The translations under genes were made by a program, and so were the position numbers. From the NCBI GenBank assembly GCA_945860095.1, contig CAMAPP010000001.1:3741-67740 (forward strand): 64,000 nucleotides of DNA, read 5' to 3'. Position 1 is the first letter of the stretch; every line of letters begins with the position of its first letter. The DNA is from Rhizobium sp. Q54. Lineage in GTDB: Bacteria > Pseudomonadota > Alphaproteobacteria > CADEGL01. Below, piece by piece: positions 4,509-25,720 of this stretch. The notes under the pieces were generated by a model. It did not search any database. It was not told where the DNA came from and saw only the letters and a list, made by a program, of their open reading frames with translations.

Positions 4509-5237
4509 ATGCGATCCGTTGGCGTCATCGTGGCCCGAGGTGGATCCAAGCGGATCCCGCGCAAGGTTTTGCGCCCGCTCGGCGGCATTCCCCTACTTGC
4601 CTGGATGTCAAAGGCCGCGCTTGCAAGCCGGCTTGACGCCGTCGTGCTATCGACCGACGACGCCGAGATCGCCGCGCTCGGCCGCGAACTCGGGCTGTCG
4701 GTGCCGTTTCTGCGCCCCGCGGAATTGGCGCAGGATTTCGTCCGCAATGACGACGTCGTTCTGCACGCCATAGACATGCTCGGTTCTTCCGATTCGCCCG
4801 GCGCCGATATCGCGGTTCTTTTGCAACCGACCGCGCCTTTCACGCTGCCCGGCGATATCGATGCCTGCCTCGATGCGATGGAGGAAGCCGAGATTGCTTG
4901 CTGTTTTACCGCGCGCAAGGCGACCGAGAGACCGGAATGGATGTTCGTGCCGGGCGATAAGGGCACGGTAAAATTGCTGTTGGGTGGCGAGCTGGTCGGC
5001 GACCGGCAGCACAGCCAGAAATTGACGACGTACTATGTGCCTTCGGGCGCGGTGTGGGCGACGCGCGCCGATACGCTTCGCCGCACGCGGAGCTTCTACG
5101 CGCCGCCTTTGCGTATCGTCGAAGTCGAAGAGCACCGCACCGCCGACATCGATGTGGAGGACGATCTGATCGTTGCCGAGGCCCTGCTTCGAGCCCACGC
5201 GCTGGCGCCGGTCGGCGCGGAGCGCGGTCGCCGATGA
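4509..5237 (+). CDS. Acylneuraminate cytidylyltransferase family (CMP-nonulosonic acid synthetase), copy 1
   Basis: The N-terminus reads VGVIVARGGSKRIPRKVL... and the size is about 240 aa, typical of NeuA/LegF/PseF. Confidence 0.75.
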   Translation: MRSVGVIVARGGSKRIPRKVLRPLGGIPLLAWMSKAALASRLDAVVLSTDDAEIAALGRELGLSVPFLRPAELAQDFVRNDDVVLHAIDMLGSSDSPGADIAVLLQPTAPFTLPGDIDACLDAMEEAEIACCFTARKATERPEWMFVPGDKGTVKLLLGGELVGDRQHSQKLTTYYVPSGAVWATRADTLRRTRSFYAPPLRIVEVEEHRTADIDVEDDLIVAEALLRAHALAPVGAERGRR

Positions 5238-11914: not shown

Positions 11915-12190
11915 ATGGCAATGACGGCGCCAACCTTACCCAGCACCGGCCCGATCGCCCCCCGCCTCGGCGGCGAGTTGCCGGCGGGCGCGGACGGCGC
12001 GCCCACTGCGCCGTGGGCGCTGCCGGCGGACGTGCTTGCCTTCAGCCATGACCGCGCGGCCCTGTCATGGCTTCATGCGGCGCGCGGTCCGTTCCGGAGC
12101 GCGCTGCATGAAGCCTATACCTGTCCGAGCGTGCCGGAGAATATTATCGAAATTAATACCCATGGTGATGTCGGATTAATCCATGACTGA
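11915..12190 (+). pseudogene. Truncated 5' remnant of a DegT-like aminotransferase gene (paralogue of 12998..14077)
   Basis: The product ...LAFSHDRAALSWLHAARGPFRSALHEAYTCPSVPE... aligns with ...LYFSHGRAALRWIVGARGPFAGALVCAYTWPTVPD... of the intact gene. The remnant has high GC and ends exactly at the start of the low-GC acetyltransferase gene. Confidence 0.45.
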
Positions 12191-12893
12191 CTATTTTGTT
12201 GTCGATAAAGACGTTGAAAATCTTCTGCCTCAAGATACGCTGGCCTTCGATGGGCGCGTGCGGATTGGCAGCCGCGCCAAAATATCGGTGGGCACTCGGA
12301 TCGAGCCTCCAGTCTTAGTCGCATCGGGCGCGCGCATTTTAGACGGAGTTTCGATCGGCAAGTATTCTTACGTCGGTCGCAATACCATCGTGACCCGCGC
12401 TGACATTGGGTGCTTCTGCAGCATCGCACATGATTGCCAAATTAATTATTTCCGCGGACACCCGATGGATTGGTTAAGTACTCATACATTTCAGTATGAT
12501 CGCGATAATTTTGCTTTTTGGAGCGGTTATTCCGGTTTTACAAAGCAGCATTTTGATGGCGATACCACTCAAGCAAAGGTTGTGATTGGCGCGGATGTTT
12601 GGCTCGGAGCTGGCGTGTATATATTCGGAGGCGTCACGATTGGTTCGGGTGCGATCATTGGTGCGCGCGCAATGGTTCAGCGCGACATACCTGCCTATGG
12701 CGTCGCGGTCGGGGCACCCGCCAAGGTCAAGAACTACAGGTTCGATCAAAAATTAATCGAAAAATTGCTCGCCATCGAATGGTGGACGCTTGATGAGTCA
12801 TTGCTGCGCGACTTGCCGTTTTACGACGTAAATCGCTGTCTGGAGTTGCTGGACGAGCGGACGTTAAATTCCAAGTCATCCCCTGGAATTTAG
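12183..12893 (+). CDS. Hexapeptide-repeat (left-handed beta-helix) acetyltransferase, Vat/CatB-like
   Basis: Imperfect hexapeptide repeats are present (IGADVWLGAGVYIFGGVTIGSGAIIGARAMV). The N-terminal 60 bp sampled is about 40% GC. Confidence 0.8.
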   Translation: MTDYFVVDKDVENLLPQDTLAFDGRVRIGSRAKISVGTRIEPPVLVASGARILDGVSIGKYSYVGRNTIVTRADIGCFCSIAHDCQINYFRGHPMDWLSTHTFQYDRDNFAFWSGYSGFTKQHFDGDTTQAKVVIGADVWLGAGVYIFGGVTIGSGAIIGARAMVQRDIPAYGVAVGAPAKVKNYRFDQKLIEKLLAIEWWTLDESLLRDLPFYDVNRCLELLDERTLNSKSSPGI

Positions 12894-12997
12894 TAGGAAG
12901 CACGTACCGGCGATGTTTAGAGACATGCCCCGCTCGGATCTCTGCGTGACGGAGGATATTTTCCGCCGCCCAATCCGTCTCCCGAACAGCGCGGCGC

Positions 12998-14077
12998 TTG
13001 ATGGCTGATTCTATGGATCGGACTGGCATCGAGGTCTCCTCCGCACCAGTTGGCGGGCATCGCCGCTTTGGCGGGACGATCCCTGTTGGCGCCGATGCCC
13101 TTCTCGCGACAGCCGCGCGGCTTGATCCGACATTACTCTATTTTTCGCATGGGCGTGCCGCGCTCCGTTGGATCGTCGGAGCGCGAGGACCATTCGCCGG
13201 TGCCTTGGTTTGCGCCTACACATGGCCGACAGTGCCCGATTTGCTCACTTCGCTTGGCCTCGAAGTGCGGACGTTTGACGTCGGTGATCCCGATCCGACA
13301 CGCCTCATTCCAGCCGGCAATACCCGTTGGCTGGTACTGGTGCCTGCGCTGTTCGGCGTCGAACCGTGGCTCGACTTGGGAGCATTGGCCCGCGCGCTGG
13401 GTTCTCGCGCCATGGTGGTGCTCGACGCCGCGCAGACGGCATTTGCGGCGATCGATCATGCCCCGCCTCCAGGCGGTGGCGTGTTTTCGTGCCTGCACAA
13501 ATGCACGGCGTTGGGTGATGGAGCCTTGTTAGCACTCGATCCGCCCCCGCGTTCAGATGAGCGACAGGCTCTCGAGCAAAGTCCGATGGCCATCGAATCG
13601 AGCAAAACAAGGCTTAAGGCGCGTATAGCCTTTGCGCGAGGTAACGAAGAGGGCGAGATTCAAGCGCTTGAACTGATAAGAGAAGCCGAGGCACTTTGGC
13701 CGTTAAACTTTTGCCGGATGACGGATGAATCCAAAAGCCTTTTGGCTTACCTTGATCGATCCGCGCACGGTACACGACGCCGCGCCAATGGTGCGCGGCT
13801 AACGAAGGCGCTTAACGGTCGCCTGCCATTTGCTTGGACGGGCGAGGGCGTGCCTTTCTGTCAGACAATACTCGTTGCCGCGCGTGCAACCCTGCTTCCA
13901 CGGTTACACGCGCGTCGAGTCTTTGCCTCCCCATTGTGGCCTGATGCCCACTGCGATGCCGGTCGTCACCCTCGGGCTGCGCGTTTTGCGCGCGAACTTA
14001 TAGCGCTGCCGTTAGACCAACGTTATGAGCCCGCCGACATGGACGCTCTTGCCGATCTCGTGCTCGATGCGTTGTGA
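12998..14077 (+). CDS. DegT/DnrJ/EryC1/StrS-family (sugar aminotransferase-like) protein, divergent
   Basis: The order of conserved blocks matches the DegT fold: FSHGRAAL, TWPTVPD, VVLDAAQT and GVFSCLHKCTALGDGA (candidate PLP lysine). Confidence 0.55.
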   Translation: MMADSMDRTGIEVSSAPVGGHRRFGGTIPVGADALLATAARLDPTLLYFSHGRAALRWIVGARGPFAGALVCAYTWPTVPDLLTSLGLEVRTFDVGDPDPTRLIPAGNTRWLVLVPALFGVEPWLDLGALARALGSRAMVVLDAAQTAFAAIDHAPPPGGGVFSCLHKCTALGDGALLALDPPPRSDERQALEQSPMAIESSKTRLKARIAFARGNEEGEIQALELIREAEALWPLNFCRMTDESKSLLAYLDRSAHGTRRRANGARLTKALNGRLPFAWTGEGVPFCQTILVAARATLLPRLHARRVFASPLWPDAHCDAGRHPRAARFARELIALPLDQRYEPADMDALADLVLDAL

Positions 14078-14088
14078 GTGGTGATGCG

Positions 14089-15030
14089 TCAATCTGGCGT
14101 GTGGCGGCGTCGCAGCATCAACTTAAGTCCTTGCTCAATTTCTATGGAAGCCTGGAAATCGAGCGCGCGCCGAGCATATTCGGTGTTGAGTGCAAAACGC
14201 AGCTGGGGTGGCCGATCCGTGGTGGTTTCACGCACAATGACGCGGCCGCGACCGGCAACGCAAACGCAGGCTTGCGCGATTTCCATTAAAGTTTGCGGTG
14301 CGCCGCTTGCCACATTGAAAGTCGCCCAGGCGCGTCGGTCGAGTGTCAATTTAACGGCGCGGGCTACGTCCGCGGCGTGCACAAGGTCGATGCAATCTTT
14401 GGCTGGTGGATCGATTAGAATTGTTTCGTCTTTAGCTGCTATTTCGAGCCATGTTGGTATGAGTTTTCCGGAAGCCATACCGGTTCCGTAGATCGATGAT
14501 GGCCGCAGTACGGCTAGATTCAAACCTTCCTGTCGCAGAGGCCACAAAGCGGCTTCCGCAAGTAGTTTGCTATGGCCGTATGCGCCGCCGGTTGCACCTT
14601 GCCAGGCCAGTTCGTCGTTCTCTGCTGGCCGACCACCCTCAGCAGCGGCATACACCGTTGCCCCGGATATAAAAATCATTGGTATGCCTCGAGCCAGCGC
14701 CCAGCCTCCGAGCGCCCAGGTGGCACGAATATTGGCATCGAACAGTGTTCGACAATCCATCGTCACGCCTGGCGCCCGGACCAAGGCCCCTGCATGGACC
14801 ACGGCTGTGGCGGCGGGGAACAACTCATCGAGCGCATCCGGCTCGCGCCATTCCTGGAGATCCCATATCTCCCAACTTGAGGCTTCACCTTGATCTGCCG
14901 GAACCTTGCGAGAAGCAGCCAGAACTTCCACGCGATCGCGTGCAAGCAAGGCCAGGATATGGCGCCCGAGAACGCCGGAGGCGCCGGTAAGGGCGATGCG
15001 GTGGGGCGGGCTGAGCGTGCCATGAGACAT
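14089..15030 (-). CDS. NAD-dependent epimerase/dehydratase family protein
   Basis: Has the N-terminal Rossmann motif IALTGASGVLG. It is the only reverse-strand gene in the glycan locus. Confidence 0.7.
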   Translation of the reverse strand: MSHGTLSPPHRIALTGASGVLGRHILALLARDRVEVLAASRKVPADQGEASSWEIWDLQEWREPDALDELFPAATAVVHAGALVRAPGVTMDCRTLFDANIRATWALGGWALARGIPMIFISGATVYAAAEGGRPAENDELAWQGATGGAYGHSKLLAEAALWPLRQEGLNLAVLRPSSIYGTGMASGKLIPTWLEIAAKDETILIDPPAKDCIDLVHAADVARAVKLTLDRRAWATFNVASGAPQTLMEIAQACVCVAGRGRVIVRETTTDRPPQLRFALNTEYARRALDFQASIEIEQGLKLMLRRRHTPD

Positions 15031-15080
15031 GGCATGATGGTGACGTGTGCGGCTGCTGTTATCAACGGATATTGGCTCTG
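15031..15080. promoter_or_regulatory. Short divergent intergenic region between the epimerase (-) and NeuC copy 1 (+); likely divergent promoters
   Basis: Inferred only from the divergent gene arrangement. Confidence 0.2.
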
Positions 15081-16244
15081 ATGCTTCGGGTATGCCTTGT
15101 CACTGGTTCGCGCGCCGAATATGGCCTGTTGCGCCCCGTTATTGCGGCCTTGAAGGCCGAGCAAGGTATGATCGTAAGTCTGGTCGTAACGGCGATGCAC
15201 TTGTCGCCCGAGTTTGGACTTAGCATTGGCGAGATCGAAGCGGACGGTCACCGCATCGATGCACGCGTCGAGATGCTGCTTTCCTCGGATTCCGGCGTTG
15301 GCGTCGCCAAGTCGATGGGGCTTGGCACGATCGGCCTTGCCGACGTTTTTGCCCGGATTGCACCGGACATCATCATTTTATTCGGCGACCGTTTTGAGAC
15401 GCTCGCAGCGGCACAGTCCGCGCTCGTCATGCGGATTCCGGTTGCGCACGTGTCCGGAGGCCATGTCACACATGGCGCATTCGACGATGCGATTCGACAT
15501 AGCATCACGAAAATGTCGCATATCCATTTCGCGACCACTGAAGAGGCGGGTTTGCGCATCCGGCAACTTGGTGAAGACACAGCCAACATTCATGTTGTCG
15601 GTGACCCGGGCATCGATGCAATTCGACTCACCAAGCGCCTGGCAAAGCCTGCCGTTGAGGAGCGGCTTGGCTTTCGTCTGCTTAGCCGAAATGTCCTCGT
15701 GACGTTCCATCCTGTCACGCTCGATCCGATTCCTTCAGTGCAGCAATTTGAAAATCTTCTAACTGCGCTGGATTCACTTGGGCCGAATATGGGCATCATT
15801 CTCACCAAGCCAAATGCCGATGTCGAAGGCCGCTCGCTCGGGGCCTTGGCGGAGGATTTTGCGGCCGGGCGCCCCAATGCCATCTGTCGCAGTTCACTCG
15901 GACACCTTCTTTATCTCAGCACCATGGCCGAGGTGGATGTCGTCATTGGGAATTCTTCAAGCGGTCTGCTGGAGGCTCCGTCGCTTGAAAAGCCGGCGGT
16001 CAATATCGGCATGCGGCAATCGGGCCGACCTAGGGCCGCTTCGGTAATCGACTGTCCAGCGGATGCGCGAGCCATCGGGGACGCAATACAGCGCGCCTTT
16101 AGGCTCGACTGCCGTGGCGTGGTAAATCCTTACGGTGACGGCCATGCGGCAGAGCGCATCCTAGCGGTATTGAAGATGACGCGCGATCCGCAGGCGCTGC
16201 TCTACAAACGCTTCCGCGACCTTCCTCCTACAAACTCCAGGTGA
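15081..16244 (+). CDS. UDP/GDP-N-acetylglucosamine 2-epimerase (hydrolysing), NeuC/LegG family, copy 1
   Basis: VTGSRAEYGLLRPV, HVSGGHVTHGAFDDAIRHSITKMSHIHF and GNSSSGLLEAPS are typical of NeuC. An alternative GTG start lies at 15045. Confidence 0.8.
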   Translation: MLRVCLVTGSRAEYGLLRPVIAALKAEQGMIVSLVVTAMHLSPEFGLSIGEIEADGHRIDARVEMLLSSDSGVGVAKSMGLGTIGLADVFARIAPDIIILFGDRFETLAAAQSALVMRIPVAHVSGGHVTHGAFDDAIRHSITKMSHIHFATTEEAGLRIRQLGEDTANIHVVGDPGIDAIRLTKRLAKPAVEERLGFRLLSRNVLVTFHPVTLDPIPSVQQFENLLTALDSLGPNMGIILTKPNADVEGRSLGALAEDFAAGRPNAICRSSLGHLLYLSTMAEVDVVIGNSSSGLLEAPSLEKPAVNIGMRQSGRPRAASVIDCPADARAIGDAIQRAFRLDCRGVVNPYGDGHAAERILAVLKMTRDPQALLYKRFRDLPPTNSR

Positions 16245-17080
16245 CGGTTGTGAGTAAAAACGCCGTCTACGCTCCATTGTTTGACCTGGCTGGCCGCCGC
16301 GCCATCATCACGGGTGCCTGTGGGACGCTCGGGCCTGCGTTCGCGGCGGCGCTTGCCGAAATGGGCGCCTCGGTCGTGGTTTCCGACATTGATGCGTCCA
16401 ATGCCGAGGCGCTGGCCGCCGAACTCGCACAGGCCCACGGTCGCCGCACGCTTGGGCTGTCCTGTGACGTTAGCAACGCGACCGCCGTCGATGAAATGAT
16501 CGAACGCGCAGTTCAAGCTTTCGGCGGCATCGACATCCTGGTCAACAATGCCCAAGCGGCCAACCCTAATCCCAGCCGCTATTTCGATCCGCTGGAACAT
16601 TATTCGTTCGAGGAGTGGCGGCGTCGGATGTCTGTCGACCTCGACGGCATGTTCCTGGTGGCTCAAGGCACTGCTCGGCGCATGGCGAAGCAAGATACCG
16701 GTGGCGCGATCGTGCAAATCGCTTCGATTTATGGCGCGCTCGGTCCCGACCAACGTATCTACGAGGGGGCGGGGTTTCGCGGCGCTCCGATCAATCTGCC
16801 GCCGGTCTATTCGGCCGCCAAGGGTGGAGTCATTGGGCTGACGCGTTGGCTTGCGACGTGGGGGGCCGACAAAGGCATCCGTGTTAATGCGCTGGTGCCT
16901 GGCGGCGTCGAAAGCGGTCAGAATGACGAGTTCGTGAAAAAATATAGCCAGCGTGTTCCGCTTGGCCGCATGGCGCGCCGCGAAGAGGTAGCGTCCTCGT
17001 TGTTGTGGCTTGTTTCGGATGCCGCAAGCTATGTTACAGGGCAGACGATCTTCGTCGATGGCGGATTGAGCGCGTGGTGA
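16241..17080 (+). CDS. SDR family oxidoreductase (PtmA-like)
   Basis: ITGACGTLG glycine-rich motif, NNAQ and the YSAAK catalytic motif are present. The GTG start overlaps the upstream stop. Confidence 0.8.
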   Translation: MTVVSKNAVYAPLFDLAGRRAIITGACGTLGPAFAAALAEMGASVVVSDIDASNAEALAAELAQAHGRRTLGLSCDVSNATAVDEMIERAVQAFGGIDILVNNAQAANPNPSRYFDPLEHYSFEEWRRRMSVDLDGMFLVAQGTARRMAKQDTGGAIVQIASIYGALGPDQRIYEGAGFRGAPINLPPVYSAAKGGVIGLTRWLATWGADKGIRVNALVPGGVESGQNDEFVKKYSQRVPLGRMARREEVASSLLWLVSDAASYVTGQTIFVDGGLSAW

Positions 17081-18558
17081 CTCTGGCAGAGGCTAACGGC
17101 GGTATTCCGCTCACGTTGTACGGCGTGAGTCCGGAGGAGCTCGCCGAGGACGTCTATTACCGTCGAGACTTCTTCGAATTACATCGTGGCTCCGGTTTCA
17201 TCGATTGCATCGAGGGGCCCTCGTTTCATGCCGGCGCGGTCGTGCGCGCCATCGAGGGGACCGATCTGGAAGACCTAGAAACACCATGGGGCTATGGCGG
17301 TCCGATCGCGACCAGCCATGAACAGATGCGACAAGGCATGTGGCTGTGGCGTCAGCGCCAGCGTGAGGCCGGCCGAGTGGCTGAATTCGTGCGCCTGCAC
17401 CCATTCCTCAATCCACTGGCCGTCCACGATTACTATGCTGACATCAAGTTTGATCGTGTAACGATTGCCGTCGATCTATCGCTGCCACGCGAACAACGCC
17501 GTCGCGTCTATTCCGAAGGCACCAAGAACCGACTTCGCCGCGCGGCACGAAGCATGACAGTTGTGAGACTCGGAATCGAACACGCCGAAGATTTTCGGCG
17601 CTGCTACGAAACCGGACTAGACCGCAATAACGCGCTCTCTGCCTATTATTTTGGCGATGACTATTATGAGAAAATTCTCGCGTCGCCTTGGGCGACGTGC
17701 CTTGGCGGGCAATTGGATGGCGAGATTGTATCGATTGCGTGTTTCCTCCATACGGGAATATTTTGCCACTACCATCTGTCCGGTTCGACGTCGGACGGAC
17801 GCGCTAAGTTTGCACACTATCTTCTACTTGATCATGCATTTGATTATTTTTCGGAAAAAGGCGCGCGCCTCATGCATCTCGGCGGCGGCCGGACGGAACG
17901 GCCAGACGATGCGCTGCTGGAGTTCAAGAAGAAGTTTTCCCGTTGGCGCCTAGCGTTCTACACGGCCGGTGCCATCTATGACCCCGAAGCCTATGCCCAG
18001 CTTTCGACTGGGGACACGCGGCGCTTCTTGAACTATCGGTTTAGCCTCACCCCTCGTGATGAGGTCGGCGATGTGGTCTTGCGCAAAGCAACGATTCAAG
18101 ACCTCACCTCCTATTTTCAATTGAAATGCGATGTCTCAAATATTTTTTGGTCTGGACATGTGTCACCGCCGGACTGGCGTCATTTAAGTGCCTGGTATAC
18201 CGCTTTATTCAACGAAAATATGAAGCGCGAAGTCTTTATCGCTGAGATGCATTCACGGGTCATCGGCTACGCGTATCTCGACGACAAGAATGATCATCTC
18301 GAGTCGACATTGGGGGTCGCGGCATCGGAGTCAAACCGCGCACGCGGCCGCCATCTACTTATGGAGATGGTCAAGATATTGCGAGAGCGAAACGAAACAC
18401 GTTCGGTGGAAGCGTGGATTTTTAAGGAGAACATCGCGTCCGTGAAGGCACACGAGGCAGCGGGTTTTGTTTTGGATTCGAGCCGACCGACAAGATCGTC
18501 CAATATGCCTTTCGTTAAAAACGGTAATATTCAAAGTTGCTGGGTGTGGAGGGTTTAG
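17074..18558 (+). CDS. FemAB-like (Acetyltransf_6/aminoacyl-transferase fold) domain fused to a C-terminal GNAT acetyltransferase domain
   Basis: The N-terminal roughly 340 aa resemble FemAB/peptidoglycan-bridge-type transferases. The C-terminal part is a classic GNAT (VIGYAYLD ... RARGRHLLMEMV ... AAGF). The start is taken as a GTG overlapping the SDR stop; track entry 17005 is probably over-extended. Confidence 0.55.
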   Translation: MVTLAEANGGIPLTLYGVSPEELAEDVYYRRDFFELHRGSGFIDCIEGPSFHAGAVVRAIEGTDLEDLETPWGYGGPIATSHEQMRQGMWLWRQRQREAGRVAEFVRLHPFLNPLAVHDYYADIKFDRVTIAVDLSLPREQRRRVYSEGTKNRLRRAARSMTVVRLGIEHAEDFRRCYETGLDRNNALSAYYFGDDYYEKILASPWATCLGGQLDGEIVSIACFLHTGIFCHYHLSGSTSDGRAKFAHYLLLDHAFDYFSEKGARLMHLGGGRTERPDDALLEFKKKFSRWRLAFYTAGAIYDPEAYAQLSTGDTRRFLNYRFSLTPRDEVGDVVLRKATIQDLTSYFQLKCDVSNIFWSGHVSPPDWRHLSAWYTALFNENMKREVFIAEMHSRVIGYAYLDDKNDHLESTLGVAASESNRARGRHLLMEMVKILRERNETRSVEAWIFKENIASVKAHEAAGFVLDSSRPTRSSNMPFVKNGNIQSCWVWRV

Positions 18559-18559
18559 C

Positions 18560-19732
18560 GTGGGATTGTCTCGCAAGAAAGTATGCGTAGTCACCGGCAC
18601 ACGCGCCGAGTTTGGTCTGCTTCGTCCGGTCATGGCGCTTCTCAAGAAGGATTCGGCTTTTGACCTTCAGGTCATCGCCTCGGCCATGCATCTGGTGCCG
18701 GAATTCGGATTGACGTACCGCGAAATCGAAGCGGCGGGATTTGATATCGATGCAAAGGTAGAGATGCTGATCGCCGGCGACACGCCTGCGGCCGCGGCAA
18801 AGTCGATGGGAATCGGCACCATGGGCTTCGCTGATGCATTTTCTCGACTTGAACCCGATATGATCATGCTATTGGGCGATCGATTCGAGGCGCTCGCCGC
18901 CGCTTCGACCGCGACGGTCATGGGCATTCCCATCATCCATTTGGTGGGGGGCGACGTTACCGAAGGCGCCTTCGACGATGCCATTCGGCACGCGATTACA
19001 AAGATGTCCCATCTGCACTTTGTGGCCTCGAAGGAATCAGGTGGCCGAGTCCGGCAAATGGGTGAGGAGCCGTTTCGTGTGCATGTCGTGGGCGATCCTG
19101 GACTCGATGGTCTGCGGCAGATGACATTGATTGGTCGGAAAGCCCTGGAACGAGATATCGGATTTCGGTTTCGTCACAAGAATCTCGTTGTCACCTTTCA
19201 CCCAGCGACGCTCGATCGTATTCCGTCGACCAAGCAGTTCGCCACCGTGTTGGATGCGCTCGACAGCCTTGGTCCGGATTTTGGCCTTATCTTCACTAAA
19301 CCGAACGCCGATCCGCAAGGGCGGGCGCTCATCGTCATGCTCGATGCGTTTGTTCGGGATCACCCGAATTCGGCTGCTTTCGTGTCTTTAGGGCAGCGCC
19401 GCTATCTAAGCGTCATGGCGCAATGTGACGCAGTCGTCGGCAATTCGTCGTCAGGGCTCTTAGAGGCGCCGTCGTTGGGCATACCCACGATCAACATAGG
19501 AAGCCGCCAGAATGGCCGTCTGAAGGCGAAGACGGTTTATGATTGTTCTGTGGACAAGGCGGGGATAGTTAGGGCGCTTCGCAAAGCCCTGAGCGGGCGT
19601 ATTGGAAAGGTGGATAATCCACATGGAGATGGCCATACGGCGCCTCGAATCATACGCATACTGAAAAAGGTACGCGATCCAAAGAGCCTATTGCGCAAAT
19701 CCTTCCATAACCTCAATCGATCCCTTGTCTGA
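18560..19732 (+). CDS. UDP/GDP-N-acetylglucosamine 2-epimerase (hydrolysing), NeuC/LegG family, copy 2
   Basis: Shares roughly 50-55% identity with copy 1 (VTGTRAEFGLLRPV, HLVGGDVTEGAFDDAIRHAITKMSHLHF, GNSSSGLLEAPS). GTG start. Confidence 0.8.
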   Translation: MGLSRKKVCVVTGTRAEFGLLRPVMALLKKDSAFDLQVIASAMHLVPEFGLTYREIEAAGFDIDAKVEMLIAGDTPAAAAKSMGIGTMGFADAFSRLEPDMIMLLGDRFEALAAASTATVMGIPIIHLVGGDVTEGAFDDAIRHAITKMSHLHFVASKESGGRVRQMGEEPFRVHVVGDPGLDGLRQMTLIGRKALERDIGFRFRHKNLVVTFHPATLDRIPSTKQFATVLDALDSLGPDFGLIFTKPNADPQGRALIVMLDAFVRDHPNSAAFVSLGQRRYLSVMAQCDAVVGNSSSGLLEAPSLGIPTINIGSRQNGRLKAKTVYDCSVDKAGIVRALRKALSGRIGKVDNPHGDGHTAPRIIRILKKVRDPKSLLRKSFHNLNRSLV

Positions 19733-20804
19733 CCGGGTTTACATCATCGCGGAGGCGGGGGTGAACCATAACGGTTCGCTCGATATGGCGCTTCGGTTGA
19801 TAGATTGCGCCGCTGAGGCTGCCGCGGATGCGGTGAAATTTCAGACGTTCAAGGCCGAAAAGGTGGTGACCGCCGCCGCACCTAGGGCGGCGTATCAAAT
19901 TGCGAATGTGGGCGAGGATGGCTCGCAGATCGAATTGATTCGGAATTTGCAACTTGATGAATCGGATTTTTATAAACTCGCCGCTCATGCAGCCGCGTGC
20001 AATATCGAATTCATGTCCACGCCCTTCGACCTCGAATCATTGCAATTTCTCGTGCACGAAATTGGCATCCGCCGGCTTAAAATTCCCTCTGGCGAAATCA
20101 CCAACATCTTCTTATTGCTAGGTGCGGCGCGATCGAAGCTTCCACTAATTGTCTCGACGGGCATGTGCACGCTCGACGACATCGAAGCGGCCTTGGACGT
20201 GCTTGCCTTTGGCCTCGTCCAGCCCAATGTCGCGCCTTCCGCAAATCGTATTTGGGGCGCTTCCACCAGCGCGGCCGGCCGTGCCGCCTTGATGGAAAAG
20301 GTGACGTTGCTCCACTGCACTACGGAGTATCCAAGTCCGGTGGAAGATACAAATTTGCGCGCAATGCAGACCATGCGCGATAAATTCAACCTTCCGGTTG
20401 GTTATTCTGACCACACCAGTGGCATCGCAATTCCTGTTGCCGCGGCAGCTCTGGGCGCAACTGTGATCGAAAAGCATTTCACTCTTGATCGCTCACTGCC
20501 GGGCCCGGACCACCCCGCCTCTCTGGAACCTACTGAATTGAAGTCGATGGTTCAATTCGTGCGCAAATCGGCTGCGGCATTAGGGCGGTCTGAAAAATTA
20601 CCAGCGCCTTCCGAACTTAAAAACATTCCGATTGCACGGCGCAGCCTAGTCGCCGCGCGCTCGATTCGGCACGGGGAAACGCTTGACCTGTCGATGCTCG
20701 ACGCAAAGCGCCCTGGTACGGGCCTGTCGCCAATGCGCATATTTGACATCGTCGGGACCAAGGCTAAGCGTGATTACGCTCCAGATGAGGCGATTGAATC
20801 GTGA
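19725..20804 (+). CDS. N-acetylneuraminate synthase family (NeuB/LegI/PseI-type nonulosonic acid synthase)
   Basis: The N-terminus YIIAEAGVNHNGS, the conserved core and a C-terminal SAF-like domain are present. Confidence 0.85.
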   Translation: MSDRVYIIAEAGVNHNGSLDMALRLIDCAAEAAADAVKFQTFKAEKVVTAAAPRAAYQIANVGEDGSQIELIRNLQLDESDFYKLAAHAAACNIEFMSTPFDLESLQFLVHEIGIRRLKIPSGEITNIFLLLGAARSKLPLIVSTGMCTLDDIEAALDVLAFGLVQPNVAPSANRIWGASTSAAGRAALMEKVTLLHCTTEYPSPVEDTNLRAMQTMRDKFNLPVGYSDHTSGIAIPVAAAALGATVIEKHFTLDRSLPGPDHPASLEPTELKSMVQFVRKSAAALGRSEKLPAPSELKNIPIARRSLVAARSIRHGETLDLSMLDAKRPGTGLSPMRIFDIVGTKAKRDYAPDEAIES

Positions 20805-21451
20805 GCAGGCCGGTCATTATCGTCGGCGGCGGAGGCCACGCCCACGTGATTATCGACGCGCTTACCCGCGGTGGCATCTCAGTGATCGGAATTTGCGATC
20901 CGGCCCTGTCGAAGGGTTCGTTAGGGCCGCTAGGCGTTTTGGTTCTTGGCAACGATAGTGCCCTGTCCGGCTATCCACCATCGGATGTCGATCTTGTGAA
21001 TGGCGTGGGATCGACCTCTTCAACGGATTCCCATAGACAGGTGTTCGAAGTCTTCAGCCGACGCGGCTACCGCTTTGTGTCGGTCGTGCATCCGAGTGCG
21101 ATCATTGCACGTGACGTAAGAGTAGAAGAGGGCGGTCAATTGATGGCGGGGGTTGTGGTCCAGGCCGGGACGGTCATTGGCCGCAATACGATTGTCAATA
21201 CTGGCTCCTGCATCGACCACAATTGTCGGCTCGGTGACCATGTACACGTAGCGCCGGGCGTGACGCTGTCCGGGGGCGTGACTGTTGGGTCGAACACGCA
21301 CATAGGAGTTGGTGCTTCGATTATTCAATCGGTCATCATCGGTGAACACTGTCTAATTGGAGCGGGCACCGTCGTGCTAACTAATGTCGATGATGGCTGT
21401 CGTATCGTAACGCCCCCGAGTCGAACGCTCATCGAGCGACCGGCAAAGTAA
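20801..21451 (+). CDS. NeuD/PglD-family sugar N/O-acyltransferase (hexapeptide)
   Basis: A Rossmann-like N-terminus (IIVGGGGHA) precedes left-handed beta-helix repeats. It overlaps the upstream stop. Confidence 0.8.
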   Translation: MSRPVIIVGGGGHAHVIIDALTRGGISVIGICDPALSKGSLGPLGVLVLGNDSALSGYPPSDVDLVNGVGSTSSTDSHRQVFEVFSRRGYRFVSVVHPSAIIARDVRVEEGGQLMAGVVVQAGTVIGRNTIVNTGSCIDHNCRLGDHVHVAPGVTLSGGVTVGSNTHIGVGASIIQSVIIGEHCLIGAGTVVLTNVDDGCRIVTPPSRTLIERPAK

Positions 21452-21473
21452 CATAGGCCTGAATTCTCCTCAT

Positions 21474-22400
21474 ATGGCCCGTACACTTGTTGTCGGATAC
21501 GGCTCGATCGGCGAACGCCATGGTCGTCTCCTTGCGGAGCTTGGACACGAAGTGGCGGTAGTCAGCCGCCGCGCCATTTCGCATTCATCGAAGTTTAGCG
21601 CAGTGGCCGACGCAATGCGGGCAATCAAACCTGAATACGTCGTAATTGCGAACGAGACTTCCGCGCATCGCTCGACCGTTGCTGCCCTCGTAGCCTGCAA
21701 TTTTTCCGGAATAATCCTTATCGAAAAGCCGCTCTTCGAGTGCACTAGCAGTAGGGATGCAACCGACCGAGCAAACACTTATGTGGGTTATGCTCTTCGT
21801 TTTCACCCATTGATGGTTCAGTTGCGAGAATGGGTACGGACGAGAAGAGTAGTCTCGGCGTCAATTCATGTAGGGCAGAATTTGTCGAGGTGGCGCCCCG
21901 GCCGGGATCTCCGTGATTCCTATTCAGCGCAACCAGCGCTTGGGGGCGGCGTGTTGCGTGACCTAAGTCACGAGTTGGACTATGCGATCTGGTTGTTCGG
22001 CGCATGGCGACGCGTTGCAGCGATCGGCGGAGCAAGCGGTGTACTTGGTATCGAAGCGGATGATCATTGGAGCATCGTGGCGGAGTTCGATCGCTGTCCA
22101 CAGGTAAGCATGACGCTTAGCTATCTCGACGAGCCACCGCGGCGTCAGATCGTGGTCAATACGGACTCTGGGACAGCGTCCGTCGACTTGCTGCGTGGAT
22201 CATTCCAGACCAGTGAGCAACCGGAGCCTGATCGCATTCGCGTTGACCGTGACGAACTCTATCGCCAGCAGCACAAAGTGATCCTATCCGGCTGTCCCGG
22301 GCAGGCATGCACGTATGGCGAAGGCCTTGCTGTCGTCTTATTCATCGAAGCGATCGAAAGTGCTGCCCGAACAGGATTCTGGATCGCTGGTTATCGATAA
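21474..22400 (+). CDS. Gfo/Idh/MocA family oxidoreductase (PtmF-like)
   Basis: The N-terminal Rossmann segment (LVVGYGSIGERH) and the EKP motif are present. Confidence 0.7.
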   Translation: MARTLVVGYGSIGERHGRLLAELGHEVAVVSRRAISHSSKFSAVADAMRAIKPEYVVIANETSAHRSTVAALVACNFSGIILIEKPLFECTSSRDATDRANTYVGYALRFHPLMVQLREWVRTRRVVSASIHVGQNLSRWRPGRDLRDSYSAQPALGGGVLRDLSHELDYAIWLFGAWRRVAAIGGASGVLGIEADDHWSIVAEFDRCPQVSMTLSYLDEPPRRQIVVNTDSGTASVDLLRGSFQTSEQPEPDRIRVDRDELYRQQHKVILSGCPGQACTYGEGLAVVLFIEAIESAARTGFWIAGYR

Positions 22401-23117
22401 ATGAAGCGAATTTGCACAATCTGCGCGCGGGGGGGGTCCAAAGGTCTTCCCGGCAAGAACCTTCGGAAGCTTCTTGGAAAATCCCTCATCGCGCATTCCG
22501 TTGAGCACGCGCGCGCGACCGGCTTATTTGATGCCATCGCCGTGAGTAGCGACGACGACGACATTTTGCTGGCTGCGCGACAAGCAGACGTCGATCACCT
22601 GGTCAAACGCCCGTCCCATCTTGCCAACGATGTAGCTGCCAAGATGCCGACAATTCAGCACTGCGTGCGCGCAGTAGAAGAGAAATTAAATCAACAGTTC
22701 GATGTTATGGTCGATTTAGATGCCACTGCTCCATTGCGGCTTCCGGAGGATATCACGGGTGCCGTGGCGATGTTGGAGGCTGGCGGCTGCGACAATGTCA
22801 TTACCGGCAGTGAGGCGCACCGATCGCCGTATTTTAATCTTGTGGAGATGGGCAGAGATGGCTTCGTGAACCTGTCGAAGCCGGGTGGAGGGCTCGTTCG
22901 CCGGCAGGATTCACCCAAATGCTACGACTGCAATGCATCAATATACGTCTGGCCGCGCGCGACCTTTTTCGTGGCAGCGTTCGCCATTATGCCACGCACG
23001 AAGCTCTATGAAATGCCTCGCGGACGTTCACTCGATATCGACAACGAACTAGATTTTGAGATTGTCGAATTCCTCATGCGTCGCGCCGAGTTTGTGGACA
23101 GAGGATTGCGGAAATGA
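22401..23117 (+). CDS. Acylneuraminate cytidylyltransferase family (CMP-nonulosonic acid synthetase), copy 2
   Basis: The N-terminus reads ICTICARGGSKGLPGKNL... with the canonical length. Confidence 0.8.
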   Translation: MKRICTICARGGSKGLPGKNLRKLLGKSLIAHSVEHARATGLFDAIAVSSDDDDILLAARQADVDHLVKRPSHLANDVAAKMPTIQHCVRAVEEKLNQQFDVMVDLDATAPLRLPEDITGAVAMLEAGGCDNVITGSEAHRSPYFNLVEMGRDGFVNLSKPGGGLVRRQDSPKCYDCNASIYVWPRATFFVAAFAIMPRTKLYEMPRGRSLDIDNELDFEIVEFLMRRAEFVDRGLRK

Positions 23118-24694
23118 CGAATGCGGTTGCAGCGCCAACCAGTCGGAAGGGCCTAGCGGCATTTGTCTATGATGACATCGGCAAAATTACGGACTGGCGT
23201 GAGCGGCTCCACTGGCCGATCGCCCATGTTGATATCGCAAATATCGGACATCTCGTTCCCGCCGCGGTGATCTCGGCCGCGGCGTCTTTCTCCGATCTAT
23301 TCGAACGTCAGGTGGCGACCGTTGCCGGCCCGTTATTGGGCGGTGGGTTCATGTCGCTCTTGGAAGCGGCCTGGGTTAGCCAAGAAGCAAAACGCCTAGG
23401 CCTGGAGATCGTTGGTGGCCCCCCTGAAATGGCGTTGCTTGCACACGGCCGCGAAGACTTCGCCGTCCAGGAATATCGCGGCTTTCGGGTGATGCCAGTG
23501 CCACATTCGCGGCTTCGTCGCATGGTCCGAATGGCCATGTGGACGCCGGTTCACCGCCTCCCCCGCGCGCTGCTGACTCCGGAAGCAGTGGCGGTGACAT
23601 ACAATTCGCTGCTGGTGCAGGCAACGAAAGGCCATGCCGTCGGCTTCCATCACGCGCCAAACATGGTTGCACAATCCCGCGGTGGTCGTTCGCGGAAAAT
23701 GAATATTGATGTGGTGTCGATTGCGGACAAGGTGCTTGATCGCTTACTGCCACTCGCACCGATTCTCAACGCAATTCACCGCGACCGCCTGAGGAGGGTC
23801 TTCAATGCTCGTATCAAAACCGCATTGACACGGGTCGTAGAGGACATCGCCGCTTTGCGAGAATATAAACTTCCAAATGAAATCTGGAGCGGGACCAATG
23901 GATTTTATGCGACCCGCGTCCTTGCCAGCGAGGTTCGCCGTCGCGGCGGACGGGTTGAGGCATTCGATCACGGTGGCGTCACGGGCCTTACACAATTGGT
24001 GGGGTCAACGGCGCTGATCGAACTGTGCACCTCAAGTCGCTTTCATCTCGCCACACCGGAGTGGGCCGAGTTATTGGCGAAAACCGACGCGATCTCCATT
24101 GCCGCGCCGCTCAACAGCGTCACTCTGGCAGGTGGCGGCGGAGAGCCAACATTTCGCCAAGCGTTTCGCGACGGCACTGAACGCAAAGGTACACGACCGC
24201 GTGTCATCGTTATCGGCCATCCACATAAAGGCTTACGGCAATTTCCAATTGCGGCAATCAGCGACGCCACATATTGGGATTTCCAGATTGAACTCGTTGG
24301 CCAACTCAAACGCATGGACGTGGATTTTTTCTGCAAGCCGCATCCAGAAGGTGAGTTCCGAGGGCGTCGCAATCCACTGGAGGAACTCGCGCCGACATCT
24401 TATTCTCGCTTCGAAGAACATCTCGACGACGCCGATGTGTTTCTGTTCGATGCGCCGACATCCACCACATTTCTGGAGAGCCTCTGCACGCGGCGCCGAG
24501 TCGTGTTAATCGACCGGTTGTATGGTTTTAATCCTGTTGTGGAGCCTCACATACGCGAGCGTTGTCGAATTGTTAAAGGGCATTTCGATGCTCGAAATCG
24601 GTTCCGGGTCGATTTTAGCGAGCTGGAGGAGGCAATCTGCGGTACCGGATCGGAACCCGATCCTTCATATTTTCGACGTCTCACTTCCGGCTAA
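23114..24694 (+). CDS. Hypothetical protein with Capsule_synth-like (KpsS/KpsC-type) C-terminal domain; candidate CMP-nonulosonic acid transferase
   Basis: FFCKPHPEGE and DADVFLFDAPTSTTFLESL resemble the HP and TAGFES motifs of KpsS/KpsC. It is translationally coupled (ATGA) to the CMP-NulO synthetase. Confidence 0.5.
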   Translation: MTNAVAAPTSRKGLAAFVYDDIGKITDWRERLHWPIAHVDIANIGHLVPAAVISAAASFSDLFERQVATVAGPLLGGGFMSLLEAAWVSQEAKRLGLEIVGGPPEMALLAHGREDFAVQEYRGFRVMPVPHSRLRRMVRMAMWTPVHRLPRALLTPEAVAVTYNSLLVQATKGHAVGFHHAPNMVAQSRGGRSRKMNIDVVSIADKVLDRLLPLAPILNAIHRDRLRRVFNARIKTALTRVVEDIAALREYKLPNEIWSGTNGFYATRVLASEVRRRGGRVEAFDHGGVTGLTQLVGSTALIELCTSSRFHLATPEWAELLAKTDAISIAAPLNSVTLAGGGGEPTFRQAFRDGTERKGTRPRVIVIGHPHKGLRQFPIAAISDATYWDFQIELVGQLKRMDVDFFCKPHPEGEFRGRRNPLEELAPTSYSRFEEHLDDADVFLFDAPTSTTFLESLCTRRRVVLIDRLYGFNPVVEPHIRERCRIVKGHFDARNRFRVDFSELEEAICGTGSEPDPSYFRRLTSG

Positions 24695-24716: not shown

Positions 24717-24857
24717 ATGAGTAGGGGGGTGCCGAGTCGGGTGGACGAGCGCGGGCGGATCTGGCCGGATGCGGCCGCGCTCGAGGACGCCGTCTTGGCC
24801 GGCGCCGCCACGGCCGACCCCGGCTATTTCCGCCGTCTTTTGGCGGGCGATTCGTGA
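24717..24857 (+). pseudogene. 3' remnant of a resident homologue of the 526-aa Capsule_synth-like gene
   Basis: It encodes ...RIWPDAAALEDAVLAGAATADPGYFRRLLAGDS*, which parallels the C-terminus ...RFRVDFSELEEAICGTGSEPDPSYFRRLTSG* of 23114..24694. It is high-GC and keeps a GTGA overlap with the next gene. Confidence 0.4.
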
Positions 24858-25720
24858 CCACGCGTTATATTTTCACCGCGACCGCCGGCCGCAGCGGACA
24901 AAACTCGCTCGCCGATATCGCGCGCCGATATATTCCCGGTTGCCTCGTCCAGTTCGAGGAGCCGCAAATCCGGCCGCTCACGCCAAAACCCTTCGCCTAT
25001 TACGAGCGCCTGGTGCGGCGGCGCTTCGTCGAAACCCACGAATTGCTCGGCCGGGGGCGCGTGATCGAGGCATTCGTCGCCCGGGATGACGCGGCACTCG
25101 CGCGCTTTGCGCAAAGGCGCCTGGATTGGATCGGGCGCAAGATTGAAGGCGCCGGCGCGCACATCTATTTCGATGTCAGCAAATACTTCATTCGCGGCCT
25201 GCACCGGCCGATCGCGCGCGCGCGGCCGGGCATGACGCTGGTGCGCTTGGTGCGCGACCCGATCGTGAATATGCGCAGCTTTCTCAATCGCGATAAGAAT
25301 TTTTACCTGGATAACAATCGCCCCGACTCGGATGCGAACCAGTTGCGGCTCGACCCCGCGAATCTCGAGAAGGGCGAATTGTTCCTGTGGGCTTGGTGCG
25401 AATGCTATCTGCGCGCGGGCGCGCTCGCCGACGAGTTCGGCCTGAACCCGATCGTCGACATCGCAACTGCCGATCTCAACGATGGACCCGCCATGACCCG
25501 CGCCTTCGCCCGTCTCGGCTTCGACATTCCCGCCATCGATCCGGGCAAACCCCTGAACCGCAATGTCGCGAACGGCTACGGTGCAACACAAGTCTCGGCG
25601 AAGGACGTGGAATTGTTCGAGCGCTTTCGCGCCCGATTGCCCGCGGCCTCGCTCGAGCGCCTGAAAACCCTGCACGGCTACGACGCCCGCGAGGCATTGC
25701 GCCGTGCGATGCCGACATAG
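24854..25720 (+). CDS. Hypothetical protein with weak sulfotransferase-like motifs
   Basis: The N-terminal TATAGRSGQNS resembles a PAPS 5'-phosphosulfate loop, and LVRLVRDPIVNMRSF resembles the RDP...S 3'-phosphate motif. The GTG start overlaps the remnant stop. Confidence 0.4.
   Translation: MTTRYIFTATAGRSGQNSLADIARRYIPGCLVQFEEPQIRPLTPKPFAYYERLVRRRFVETHELLGRGRVIEAFVARDDAALARFAQRRLDWIGRKIEGAGAHIYFDVSKYFIRGLHRPIARARPGMTLVRLVRDPIVNMRSFLNRDKNFYLDNNRPDSDANQLRLDPANLEKGELFLWAWCECYLRAGALADEFGLNPIVDIATADLNDGPAMTRAFARLGFDIPAIDPGKPLNRNVANGYGATQVSAKDVELFERFRARLPAASLERLKTLHGYDAREALRRAMPT

What the first reader, a model, noticed from the sequence alone, without database searches (positions are those of the whole stretch)
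23114..24694. KpsS/KpsC-fold protein coupled to a CMP-NulO synthetase, a candidate novel NulO transferase
The 526-aa protein contains FFCKPHPEGE and DADVFLFDAPTSTTFLESL, resembling the HP and TAGFES catalytic-region motifs of the KpsS-like protein at 3..962 (YYPLHQEPE, VVTICGTAGFES). Its start overlaps the stop of the island CMP-NulO synthetase (ATGA). KpsS/KpsC-family enzymes are known as retaining beta-Kdo transferases that use CMP-Kdo, another CMP-activated ulosonic acid. A member of this fold placed to receive CMP-Leg would be an undescribed type of nonulosonic acid transferase.
Basis: inference. Interest (0 to 1): 0.75.

Follow-up and report, generated by a model that had tools for sequence, protein, structure and literature searches.

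The report
Uncharacterised GT-B transferase tied to nonulosonic-acid genes
The gene is real and most likely encodes a glycosyltransferase that attaches a legionaminic-acid-type sugar.

Summary
The 526-aa ORF (23114-24694, +), its two motifs and the ATGA overlap with the cytidylyltransferase gene are all confirmed.

- There is no PF05159 hit.
- Profile-profile comparison with the window's KpsS-like family gives probability 0.24%.
- The proposed motif pairing is out of register: the His lies 40 residues before the loop in one protein and 85 in the other.
- A KpsS-type nonulosonic acid (NulO) transferase has already been described (KpsS1, GT118).

The confident model (pLDDT 91) is a divergent GT-B fold. 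Its best Foldseek matches are TagF-like enzymes (TarL, Cps3D).

The family has about 1,685 representatives at 50% identity. No curated model recognises it. Half of the tested members weakly match TIGR04331 (LIC12162 family transferase).

H286, H410-P411 and S/T450-T451 are nearly invariant across 184 members. Their arrangement resembles the two-histidine site of TagF/TarL and the HP motif of sialyltransferases.

A CTP_transf_3 gene lies nearby in 17 of 20 genomic loci and NeuB in 16 of 20.

The gene is the last one in a low-GC NulO cassette. The right-hand junction of that cassette leaves a 3' remnant of a replaced allele at 24728-24857.

Most likely function: a CMP-NulO-dependent glycosyltransferase (inferred, confidence about 0.6).

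The parts
23114..24694 (+). Target gene, 526 aa. Divergent GT-B-fold protein of a large uncharacterised family and candidate CMP-NulO-dependent glycosyltransferase.
   Evidence: ORF; no Pfam or NCBIfam hit; AF2 model with pLDDT 91 and pTM 0.90; GT-B fold matches; 1,685 family representatives.
23963..23977 (+). F284-D-H286-G-G288 loop after N-subdomain strand 280-284. H286 is the proposed general base.
   Evidence: H286 is present in 184 of 184 family members and D285 in 71%. Secondary structure. Analogous to TarL W299-H300 and TagF H444 (PMC10901376) and to the D/E-D/E-G motif of sialyltransferases (PMC5420450). The role is inferred.
24335..24352 (+). K408-P-H410-P411-E-G413 loop after C-subdomain strand 404-408. 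An HP motif, proposed to contact or protonate the CMP phosphate leaving group.
   Evidence: H410 is 97% conserved, P411 99% and P409 95%. Position. Equivalent to TarL H433 and to the HP CMP-binding motif of sialyltransferases and Kdo transferases. The role is inferred.
24455..24469 (+). P448-T-S450-T451-T452 loop at the N-terminus of helix 451-457. This is the canonical GT-B nucleotide-phosphate binding loop.
   Evidence: S/T450 is 100% conserved and T451 95%. It is the only stretch aligned to the KpsS-like family by hhalign and to KpsC by the KpsS-like profile.
22401..23117 (+). CMP-NulO synthetase (CTP_transf_3). It is translationally coupled to the target through an ATGA overlap.
   Evidence: PF02348 1e-18; PseF model 1.6e-31, below cutoff; overlap. 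A homologue lies within 10 kb on the same strand in 17 of 20 loci.
18467..22400 (+). NulO synthesis genes directly upstream: hydrolysing 2-epimerase-like (Epimerase_2), NeuB-type synthase, NeuD-family acetyltransferase and a GFO/IDH/MocA oxidoreductase.
   Evidence: NeuB scores 453.8 bits against TIGR03569, above its cutoff.
12183..24694 (+). Low-GC cassette (GC3 0.55-0.68 against 0.76-0.85 in the flanks). It holds the NulO pathway genes and has the target as its last gene.
   Evidence: Per-gene GC and GC3. The right boundary coincides with the recombination junction.
24728..24857 (+). Remnant, about 130 bp, of the 3' end of a replaced allele of the same gene family. It lies in another frame and ends at the start of the next gene.
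   Evidence: 93.5% nucleotide identity to L009 from window position 24728 onward. The translation VPSRVDERGRIWPDAAALEDAVLAGAATADPGYFRRLLAGDS* closely matches the C-terminus of L009's family protein.
24854..25720 (+). Conserved downstream partner, 288 aa, with no family assignment. It is the first gene of the high-GC conserved module (FkbM, Asn-synthase-like, DUF7033 and others).
   Evidence: No Pfam or NCBIfam hit. Present next to the family gene in 12 of 20 loci. The positional equivalent in L001 has a weak Sulfotransfer_3 hit.

Best explanation
The gene encodes a cytoplasmic or peripheral GT-B-fold glycosyltransferase. It takes the CMP-activated nonulosonic acid made by the genes immediately upstream and transfers it to a sugar acceptor of a lipid-linked oligosaccharide built by the rest of the island. 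The upstream gene set looks like a legionaminic-acid-type pathway. Proposed mechanism, all inferred: CMP binds in the C-terminal Rossmann subdomain. The S/T450-T451 loop and H410-P411 contact the phosphate, and H410 assists CMP departure. Invariant H286 in the N-subdomain DHGG loop deprotonates the acceptor hydroxyl. The invariant arginines R135, R268 and R483 are candidates to bind the NulO carboxylate or the acceptor. The protein belongs to a large family that no curated model recognises. This family is distantly related to the uncharacterised LIC12162 family (TIGR04331/PF27859). It is not a KpsS/KpsC (PF05159) enzyme.
For: Shown by tool results:
- H286 is 100% conserved, H410-P411 97% and 99%, and S/T450-T451 100% and 95%, across 184 members down to 19% identity.
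- H286 and H410 lie in loops after an N-subdomain strand and a C-subdomain strand, 124 residues apart. TarL H300 (base) and H433 (acid towards CMP) are 133 apart (PMC10901376).
- The HP motif is the CMP-binding motif of sialyltransferases and Kdo transferases.
- Linkage: a CTP_transf_3 gene lies on the same strand within 10 kb in 17 of 20 loci, usually adjacent or separated only by an SDR gene. NeuB is present in 16 of 20 loci. This holds down to about 30% identity and with rearranged gene order.
- The ATGA overlap indicates translational coupling.
- The gene is the terminal gene of a low-GC NulO cassette.
- In the near-relative locus L009, the downstream genes are 93-97% identical but the family gene is only 43% identical and its CMP synthetase 68%. 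A 3' remnant of the L009-type allele is left at 24728-24857. The gene therefore co-varies with the donor pathway.
- 21 of 41 members weakly and colinearly match TIGR04331 'LIC12162 family transferase'. That family is itself found beside neuABC genes (PMC6679464).
- Precedent: the T. forsythia Pse and Leg transferases are TagB-like GT-B enzymes with D/E-D/E-G and HP motifs, encoded just downstream of the CMP-NulO locus (PMC5420450).
- The island also has three ordinary GT4 enzymes, a PglK/MsbA-type ABC exporter and a Wzy_C protein. This leaves NulO transfer unassigned apart from this gene and the KpsS-like gene.
Against: - There is no biochemical evidence for any member of the family.
- No significant sequence match exists to any characterised transferase family.
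- Solved sialyltransferases do not appear among the top structural matches.
- The GT-B fold also houses non-glycosyltransferases. NeuC-type epimerases score similarly in Foldseek.
- The island contains a second candidate CMP-sugar transferase (KpsS-like, 3..962) and a second cytidylyltransferase (4509..5237), so the donor assignment is not unique.
- Three of the 20 loci lack a nearby cytidylyltransferase.
Confidence: 0.6

Rival explanations
1. It is a KpsS/KpsC-type (PF05159; GT107/GT99/GT118-like) retaining ulosonic-acid transferase. It would act through a covalent Asp adduct, here on CMP-Leg.
For: [quoted passage not shown] KpsC chains appear in the Foldseek list (6mgd rank 19, E 0.02; 6mgb rank 41). 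The gene is adjacent to a CMP-NulO synthetase.
Confidence: 0.05
2. It is a TagF-like phosphotransferase. It would transfer a phospho-linked group from a CDP-activated donor (for example CDP-glycerol or CDP-ribitol) onto the glycan, not a NulO.
Against: No PF04464 hit in any member. The conserved neighbour is a NeuA/LegF-type CTP_transf_3 together with NeuB, not a TagD- or TarI-type cytidylyltransferase. The gene co-varies with the NulO cassette. The genetically validated T. forsythia NulO transferases are themselves TagB-like.
Confidence: 0.12
3. It is a GT-B-fold enzyme that is not a transferase. It would act inside NulO biosynthesis, for example as a nucleotide-sugar hydrolase, a 2-epimerase (PseG- or LegG-like), or an enzyme that modifies CMP-NulO.
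Against: The cassette already carries two Epimerase_2 genes. No Epimerase_2 or PseG family signal is found in any member. The gene sits after the CMP-activation step and is translationally coupled to it, which is the usual position of the transferase.
Confidence: 0.13
4. It is a NulO polymerase, analogous to a polysialyltransferase, that builds a homopolymer or repeats of the NulO. This is a sub-variant of the best explanation.
For: Its size and GT-B/HP features resemble polysialyltransferases (motifs cited). TagF-like neighbours are polymerases. A PglK/MsbA-type ABC exporter sits next to the family gene in L019 and L022 and is present in the window.
Against: The island has three GT4 enzymes, a Wzy_C protein and pathways for other sugars, which suggests a heteroglycan. 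No direct evidence exists either way.
Confidence: 0.1

Closest known systems
LIC12162 family transferase (NCBIfam TIGR04331 / Pfam PF27859), itself uncharacterised
   Same: It is the only curated model that family members touch repeatedly: 21 of 41 members, best E 4.8e-05. The matches are colinear over the GT-B core, for example residues 244-484 against model positions 287-517 of 585. Overall length is similar. LIC12162-family genes are also found beside neuABC genes (PMC6679464).
   Different: Scores are at most 22 bits against a cutoff of 225, and the target itself gives no hit at E<=1. This is at most a sister family, not a member.
Tannerella forsythia Pse/Leg-derivative transferases Tanf_01245 and TFUB4_00887 (TagB-like GT-B)
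   Same: They are encoded directly downstream of the CMP-NulO locus. They have a GT-B/TagB-like fold with an HP motif and a D/E-D/E-G-type motif. Strain-specific alleles track the NulO type, with a recombination boundary inside the gene. The acceptor is an N-acetylmannosaminuronic acid, and this island also encodes a WbpB/E/D-like diamino-uronic acid pathway (PMC5420450).
   Different: The target has D-H-G rather than D/E-D/E-G, and no TagB or PF04464 signal.
TagF-like polyol-phosphate transferases (TarL, TagF, Cps3D)
   Same: They are the best Foldseek matches. They have two invariant catalytic histidines at equivalent topological positions with similar spacing, and CMP is the leaving group (PMC10901376).
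   Different: There is no PF04464 match. Their donors are CDP-polyols attacked at phosphorus. The conserved neighbours here make CMP-NulO, not CDP-glycerol or CDP-ribitol.
Bacterial GT-B sialyltransferases (GT38, GT52, GT80)
   Same: [quoted passage not shown]
   Different: None appears among the top 50-60 structural matches. No sequence-level hit exists to any solved structure. The second motif position is an invariant His.
KpsS/KpsC/WbbB/KpsS1/KrkA retaining ulosonic-acid transferases (GT107, GT99, GT118, GT140)
   Same: They use CMP-activated ulosonic acid donors, share the GT-B-type C-terminal Rossmann domain and have an HP motif. KpsS1 shows that this clade can transfer a NulO (PMC12887879).
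   Different: There is no PF05159 hit, no profile homology, no QXXXD motif and no preferential structural similarity.

Membership tests
KpsS/KpsC Capsule_synth (PF05159; GT107 and relatives GT99/GT118/GT140) | Match to the PF05159 profile | tested here: not met
   No hit at E<=1 for the target or for any of 41 family members. For comparison, the window's KpsS-like fragment gives 16.2 bits (E 0.0077), and many of its homologues carry PF05159.
KpsS/KpsC Capsule_synth (PF05159; GT107 and relatives GT99/GT118/GT140) | Profile-level homology to a bona fide KpsS-like family | tested here: not met
   hhalign of A1 against A2 gives probability 0.24% and E 0.25, with 41 columns aligned.
KpsS/KpsC Capsule_synth (PF05159; GT107 and relatives GT99/GT118/GT140) | Structural similarity to KpsC or WbbB greater than to other GT-B enzymes | tested here: not met
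KpsS/KpsC Capsule_synth (PF05159; GT107 and relatives GT99/GT118/GT140) | QXXXD motif (carboxylate-binding Gln and nucleophilic Asp) upstream of HP in the C-terminal domain (PMC12887879) | tested here: not met
   The loop after the first C-domain strand reads R375-Q376-F-P-I-A-A-I-S-D384, and no Q-x3-D is present. Q376 is only 71% conserved. A structural equivalent such as D384 or D389 cannot be excluded without a superposition.
KpsS/KpsC Capsule_synth (PF05159; GT107 and relatives GT99/GT118/GT140) | [quoted passage not shown] | tested here: met
   K408-P-H410-P411 lies directly after strand 404-408. H410 is 97% conserved and P411 99%. This feature is shared with sialyltransferases and TagF-like enzymes, so it is not diagnostic.
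TagF-like phosphotransferases (Glyphos_transf, PF04464) | Match to PF04464 | tested here: not met
   No hit in the target or in 41 relatives at E<=1.
TagF-like phosphotransferases (Glyphos_transf, PF04464) | Two invariant histidines: a base in an N-subdomain loop and an acid in a C-subdomain loop contacting the CMP phosphate | tested here: inconclusive
   H286 (100%) and H410 (97%) lie in the corresponding loops, 124 residues apart, against 133 in TarL. No coordinate superposition could be made.
TagF-like phosphotransferases (Glyphos_transf, PF04464) | CDP-polyol donor pathway encoded nearby | tested here: not met
   The conserved neighbours are NeuB and a NeuA/LegF-type cytidylyltransferase.
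LIC12162 family transferase (TIGR04331 / PF27859) | Score at or above the curated cutoff (225 bits) | tested here: not met
   The target gives no hit. Relatives score at most 21.8 bits.
LIC12162 family transferase (TIGR04331 / PF27859) | Recurrent, colinear remote similarity (superfamily-level relation) | tested here: met
   21 of 41 members hit this model, and no other model recurs, out of 18,950. The aligned regions are colinear. Precomputed PF27859 hits, weak or faint, exist on 7 homologues.
Bacterial GT-B sialyltransferases (GT38/GT52/GT80) | HP and D/E-D/E-G motifs (Freiberger et al. 2007, as cited in PMC5420450) | tested here: inconclusive
   The HP motif is present. The N-domain motif reads D285-H286-G287, with an invariant His instead of an acidic residue at the second position.
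Bacterial GT-B sialyltransferases (GT38/GT52/GT80) | Sequence or structural similarity to solved members | tested here: not met
CMP-NulO-dependent glycosyltransferase (functional class) | Catalytic transfer of a NulO from a CMP-NulO donor | not testable with these tools
   This requires an enzyme assay or genetics. Only context and motif evidence is available.

The most novel reading that the evidence does not exclude
The protein is the founding example of a new, widespread glycosyltransferase family. The family has about 1,700 clusters at 50% identity, mostly from uncultured Alphaproteobacteria. It would be dedicated to legionaminic-acid-type sugars and would use a TagF-like two-histidine mechanism (H286 as base, H410 as acid) on a CMP-sugar donor. 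It would spread as the last gene of mobile NulO cassettes that swap by recombination inside the transferase gene.
Probability: 0.4. Interest if true: 0.6.

Novelty: new variant of a known kind. Interest (0 to 1): 0.42.

Why it matters
Dedicated transferases for bacterial nonulosonic acids (legionaminic and pseudaminic acids) are few. Those described are the Maf proteins, FlmG, the Tannerella TagB-like enzymes and KpsS1/GT118. This shortage limits both glycan-structure prediction from genomes and the enzymatic synthesis of these sugars for vaccines and probes.

An abundant, unannotated GT-B family that is tightly linked to CMP-NulO synthesis would fill part of that gap. It would also give a clear set of residues to test: H286, H410, S/T450-T451, R135, R268 and R483.

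The result is still a context-based prediction of a glycosyltransferase in a glycan island. That is what a specialist would expect to find there. It is not the unusual KpsS/KpsC-type enzyme originally proposed.

Tried and rejected
- Pfam and NCBIfam scans of the target gave no hits at E<=1.
- phmmer and a family-profile hmmsearch against all PDB sequences gave only spurious coiled-coil hits.
- BLASTP against the KpsS-like protein and against two other unannotated ORFs of about 510-530 aa in the window (2954-4483 and 8349-9938) found nothing. The first of these is a WbuX amidotransferase. The second looks like a spurious Arg-rich frame.
- Divergent members from L019, L022, L023 and L024 were scanned to bridge to TIGR04331. 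None reached it.
- A profile of the KpsS-like family against the PDB only grazes KpsC (E 0.95), so it could not be used to transfer the HP and QXXXD positions.
- tblastn against plasmid records found no match.
- The exact-sequence look-up of the window's protein gave no contig or organism name.
- A flagellin-glycosylation reading (Maf or FlmG type) was considered and rejected. There is no Maf or TPR signal, and the island carries GT4 enzymes, a Wzy_C protein, a PglK-like exporter and a PglF-like dehydratase.
- A coordinate-level superposition on TarL, PmST1 or KpsC could not be done because model coordinates are not exposed.
Full report
**1. Observation**

The ORF 23114..24694 (+) exists and encodes 526 aa. 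FFCKPHPEGE is at residues 405-414 and DADVFLFDAPTSTTFLESL at 439-457. The ATG overlaps the TGA of the upstream gene as ATGA. The upstream gene 22401..23117 is a CTP_transf_3 cytidylyltransferase (PF02348, 1e-18). It is nearest to the PseF model but far below that model's cutoff. Directly upstream of it lie a NeuB-type synthase (TIGR03569, 453.8 bits, above cutoff), a NeuD-family acetyltransferase, a GFO/IDH/MocA oxidoreductase and two Epimerase_2 genes. An SDR gene, a GNAT/FemAB-like acyltransferase and, further upstream, a CBS-NTP-transferase are also present. From my own knowledge of the C. jejuni ptm/leg genes, this combination is typical of a legionaminic-acid-type pathway, so 'CMP-Leg-like' is a reasonable but inferred label.

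**2. The KpsS/KpsC claim**

- The target has no Pfam or NCBIfam hit at E<=1. None of 41 relatives hits PF05159.
- BLASTP against the window's KpsS-like fragment (3..962) finds nothing.
- I built profiles for the target family (A1, 41 sequences) and the KpsS-like family (A2, 35 sequences). hhalign gives probability 0.24% and E 0.25. It aligns only 41 columns, DAPTSTTF..VVLIDR against ICGTAGFE..PVIAFG. That stretch is the canonical GT-B phosphate-binding loop and helix. The same stretch is the only thing linking the KpsS-like family to solved KpsC.
In the target the His of KPHPEG is 40 residues before the loop. In the KpsS-like protein the His of YYPLHQEPE is 85 residues before it.
- The QXXXD nucleophile motif that defines the retaining Kdo/Pse transferase clade (PMC12887879) is absent.
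- A KpsS-related NulO transferase is already known: KpsS1 of A. baumannii, GT118. The stated novelty would therefore not have held even if the fold assignment had been right.

**3. Structure**

**4. The family**

The word-indexed search found 44 relatives, all unnamed or 'hypothetical'. The exhaustive profile search found 1,685 representatives at 50% identity with E<=1e-3, of which 528 have E<=1e-30. Genomic loci come mainly from alphaproteobacterial MAGs and from Pacificispira spongiicola KN72. Single loci are labelled Planctomycetota, Desulfobacteraceae and Nitrosopumilus. The only curated model touched repeatedly is TIGR04331, 'LIC12162 family transferase'. It is hit by 21 of 41 members (best E 4.8e-05), with colinear matches over the GT-B core but scores of at most 22 bits against a cutoff of 225. 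Seven homologues carry weak or faint precomputed PF27859 (LIC12162) hits. The only paper in the library that mentions that family places it beside neuABC genes in Herbaspirillum. I read the target family as a sister of that uncharacterised family, not a member.

**5. Conserved residues and mechanism**

Conservation was measured across 184 members, with median 31% and minimum 19% identity to the target. The best-conserved positions are:

| Residue | Conservation |
|---|---|
| H286 | 100% |
| S/T450 | 100% |
| P411 | 99% |
| R268 | 99% |
| R483 | 99% |
| D441 | 98% |
| H410 | 97% |
| R135 | 97% |
| D446 | 97% |
| T451 | 95% |

H286 (F-D-H-G-G) follows N-subdomain strand 280-284. H410-P411 (K-P-H-P-E-G) follows C-subdomain strand 404-408. 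S450-T451 starts helix 451-457. TagF-like enzymes have two invariant catalytic histidines. In TarL, H300 lies in an N-subdomain loop and acts as the base. H433 lies in the loop after a C-subdomain strand and contacts the CMP phosphate to aid its departure. They are 133 residues apart (PMC10901376). H286 and H410 are 124 apart. The HP motif is also the CMP-binding motif of bacterial sialyltransferases and Kdo transferases. The sialyltransferase D/E-D/E-G motif sits where D-H-G sits here. I therefore infer a CMP-leaving-group chemistry with H286 as base and H410 as acid. This rests on topology and spacing. No superposition was possible.

**6. Context**

In 20 non-redundant loci, a CTP_transf_3 gene lies on the same strand within 10 kb in 17. 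It is usually adjacent or separated only by an SDR gene, and in two loci it lies downstream instead of upstream. NeuB is present in 16. Downstream, a 288-aa unknown, an FkbM methyltransferase, an Asn-synthase-like amidotransferase, DUF7033 and a WbpB/D/E-like set recur. The wider island has three GT4 enzymes, a PMT_2 protein, a Wzy_C protein, a PglF-like dehydratase and a PglK/MsbA-type ABC exporter. In L019 and L022 that type of exporter is next to the family gene. This points to a lipid-linked heteroglycan (LPS or protein O-glycan type), not flagellin glycosylation.

**7. Cassette evidence (new)**

Genes from 12183 to 24694 have GC3 of 0.55-0.68, against 0.76-0.85 on both sides. The target is the last low-GC gene. 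Locus L009, from an alphaproteobacterial MAG, is 93.5% identical in DNA to the window from position 24728 onward. Its downstream proteins are 93-97% identical to the window's. Its family gene is only 43% identical, its CMP synthetase 68% and its GFO gene 48%. The window's 'intergenic' stretch 24728-24857 encodes, in another frame, VPSRVDERGRIWPDAAALEDAVLAGAATADPGYFRRLLAGDS*. This is almost identical to the C-terminus of L009's family protein. So a NulO cassette ending with its own transferase-family allele replaced an earlier one, and the junction lies inside the 3' end of the old gene. The gene therefore co-varies with the donor pathway, while the presumed acceptor pathway stays fixed. The T. 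forsythia Pse and Leg transferases show the same pattern: their alleles share an identical C-terminal half (PMC5420450).

**8. Verdict**

- **Best explanation (0.6):** a CMP-NulO-dependent GT-B glycosyltransferase from an uncharacterised family.
- **Rivals:** a TagF-like phosphotransferase (0.12), a non-transferase GT-B enzyme in NulO biosynthesis (0.13), and a KpsS/KpsC-type retaining enzyme (0.05). The polymerase reading is a sub-variant of the best explanation.
- **Novelty:** a new variant of a known kind.
- **Interest:** moderate (0.42). The family is large, unannotated and a sensible target, because NulO transferases are scarce. However, a predicted glycosyltransferase at the end of a sugar-biosynthesis cassette is what a specialist would expect.

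Noticed in passing
window 24728-24857: The region annotated as intergenic holds a roughly 130-bp out-of-frame remnant of the 3' end of a different allele of the same gene family. It is nearly identical to the C-terminus of the L009 gene. This marks a recombination junction of a cassette replacement.
   Followed up: yes
window 12183-24694: This is a compositionally distinct low-GC block (GC 0.51-0.62, GC3 0.55-0.68) within a window of 64% GC, where flanking genes have GC3 0.76-0.85. It contains the NulO pathway and the target, which suggests horizontal acquisition. The left boundary lies between 11864 and 12183 and was not mapped.
   Followed up: partly
window 3-962 (gene runs off the window start): The KpsS-like protein belongs to a family of about 500 aa whose members often carry PF05159. 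It co-occurs with the target family: L019 has a 46% identical copy 2 kb from the family gene, and several homologues of both families report identical longest-contig lengths of 44475, 37102 and 59244. It is the better candidate in this island for a KpsS1/GT118-like ulosonic-acid transferase. It sits near a second cytidylyltransferase (4509-5237).
   Followed up: partly
window 24854-25720: This is a conserved 288-aa partner gene with no Pfam or NCBIfam hit. It lies next to the family gene in 12 of 20 loci. The positional equivalents in L001 and L003 carry weak Sulfotransfer_3 hits, so it may be a glycan sulfotransferase.
   Followed up: no
P0029 (726 aa) and P0082 (793 aa), homologues from metagenomes: These are fusion proteins in which a target-family domain follows an N-terminal extension of about 200-270 residues. 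In P0029 that extension is a GNAT acetyltransferase domain. This hints at a functional link between N-acylation and the family's activity.
   Followed up: no
L019 8124-9914, L022 11226-13019, window 6275-8053: PglK/MsbA-type ABC exporters lie directly next to the family gene in two divergent loci, and one is present in the window's island. This suggests export of a lipid-linked oligosaccharide.
   Followed up: partly
window 1783-4483: A HisF-like cyclase (1783-2583) and a WbuX N-acetyl sugar amidotransferase (2954-4483; TIGR03573, 2.8e-106) are present. They suggest formation of an acetimidoyl (Am) substituent on one of the sugars.
   Followed up: no
L011 (contig JABMOR010000140.1, labelled Nitrosopumilus sp. 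MAG): A family member (35% identity) with adjacent CTP_transf_3 and NeuB genes sits on a contig binned as an archaeon. This is either a binning error or inter-domain transfer.
   Followed up: no
window 8349-9938 and 7945-9864: The 529-aa ORF at 8349-9938 translates to an Arg/Gly/Pro-rich sequence that looks like a spurious frame. The overlapping ORF at 7945-9864 (639 aa) was not annotated.
   Followed up: no
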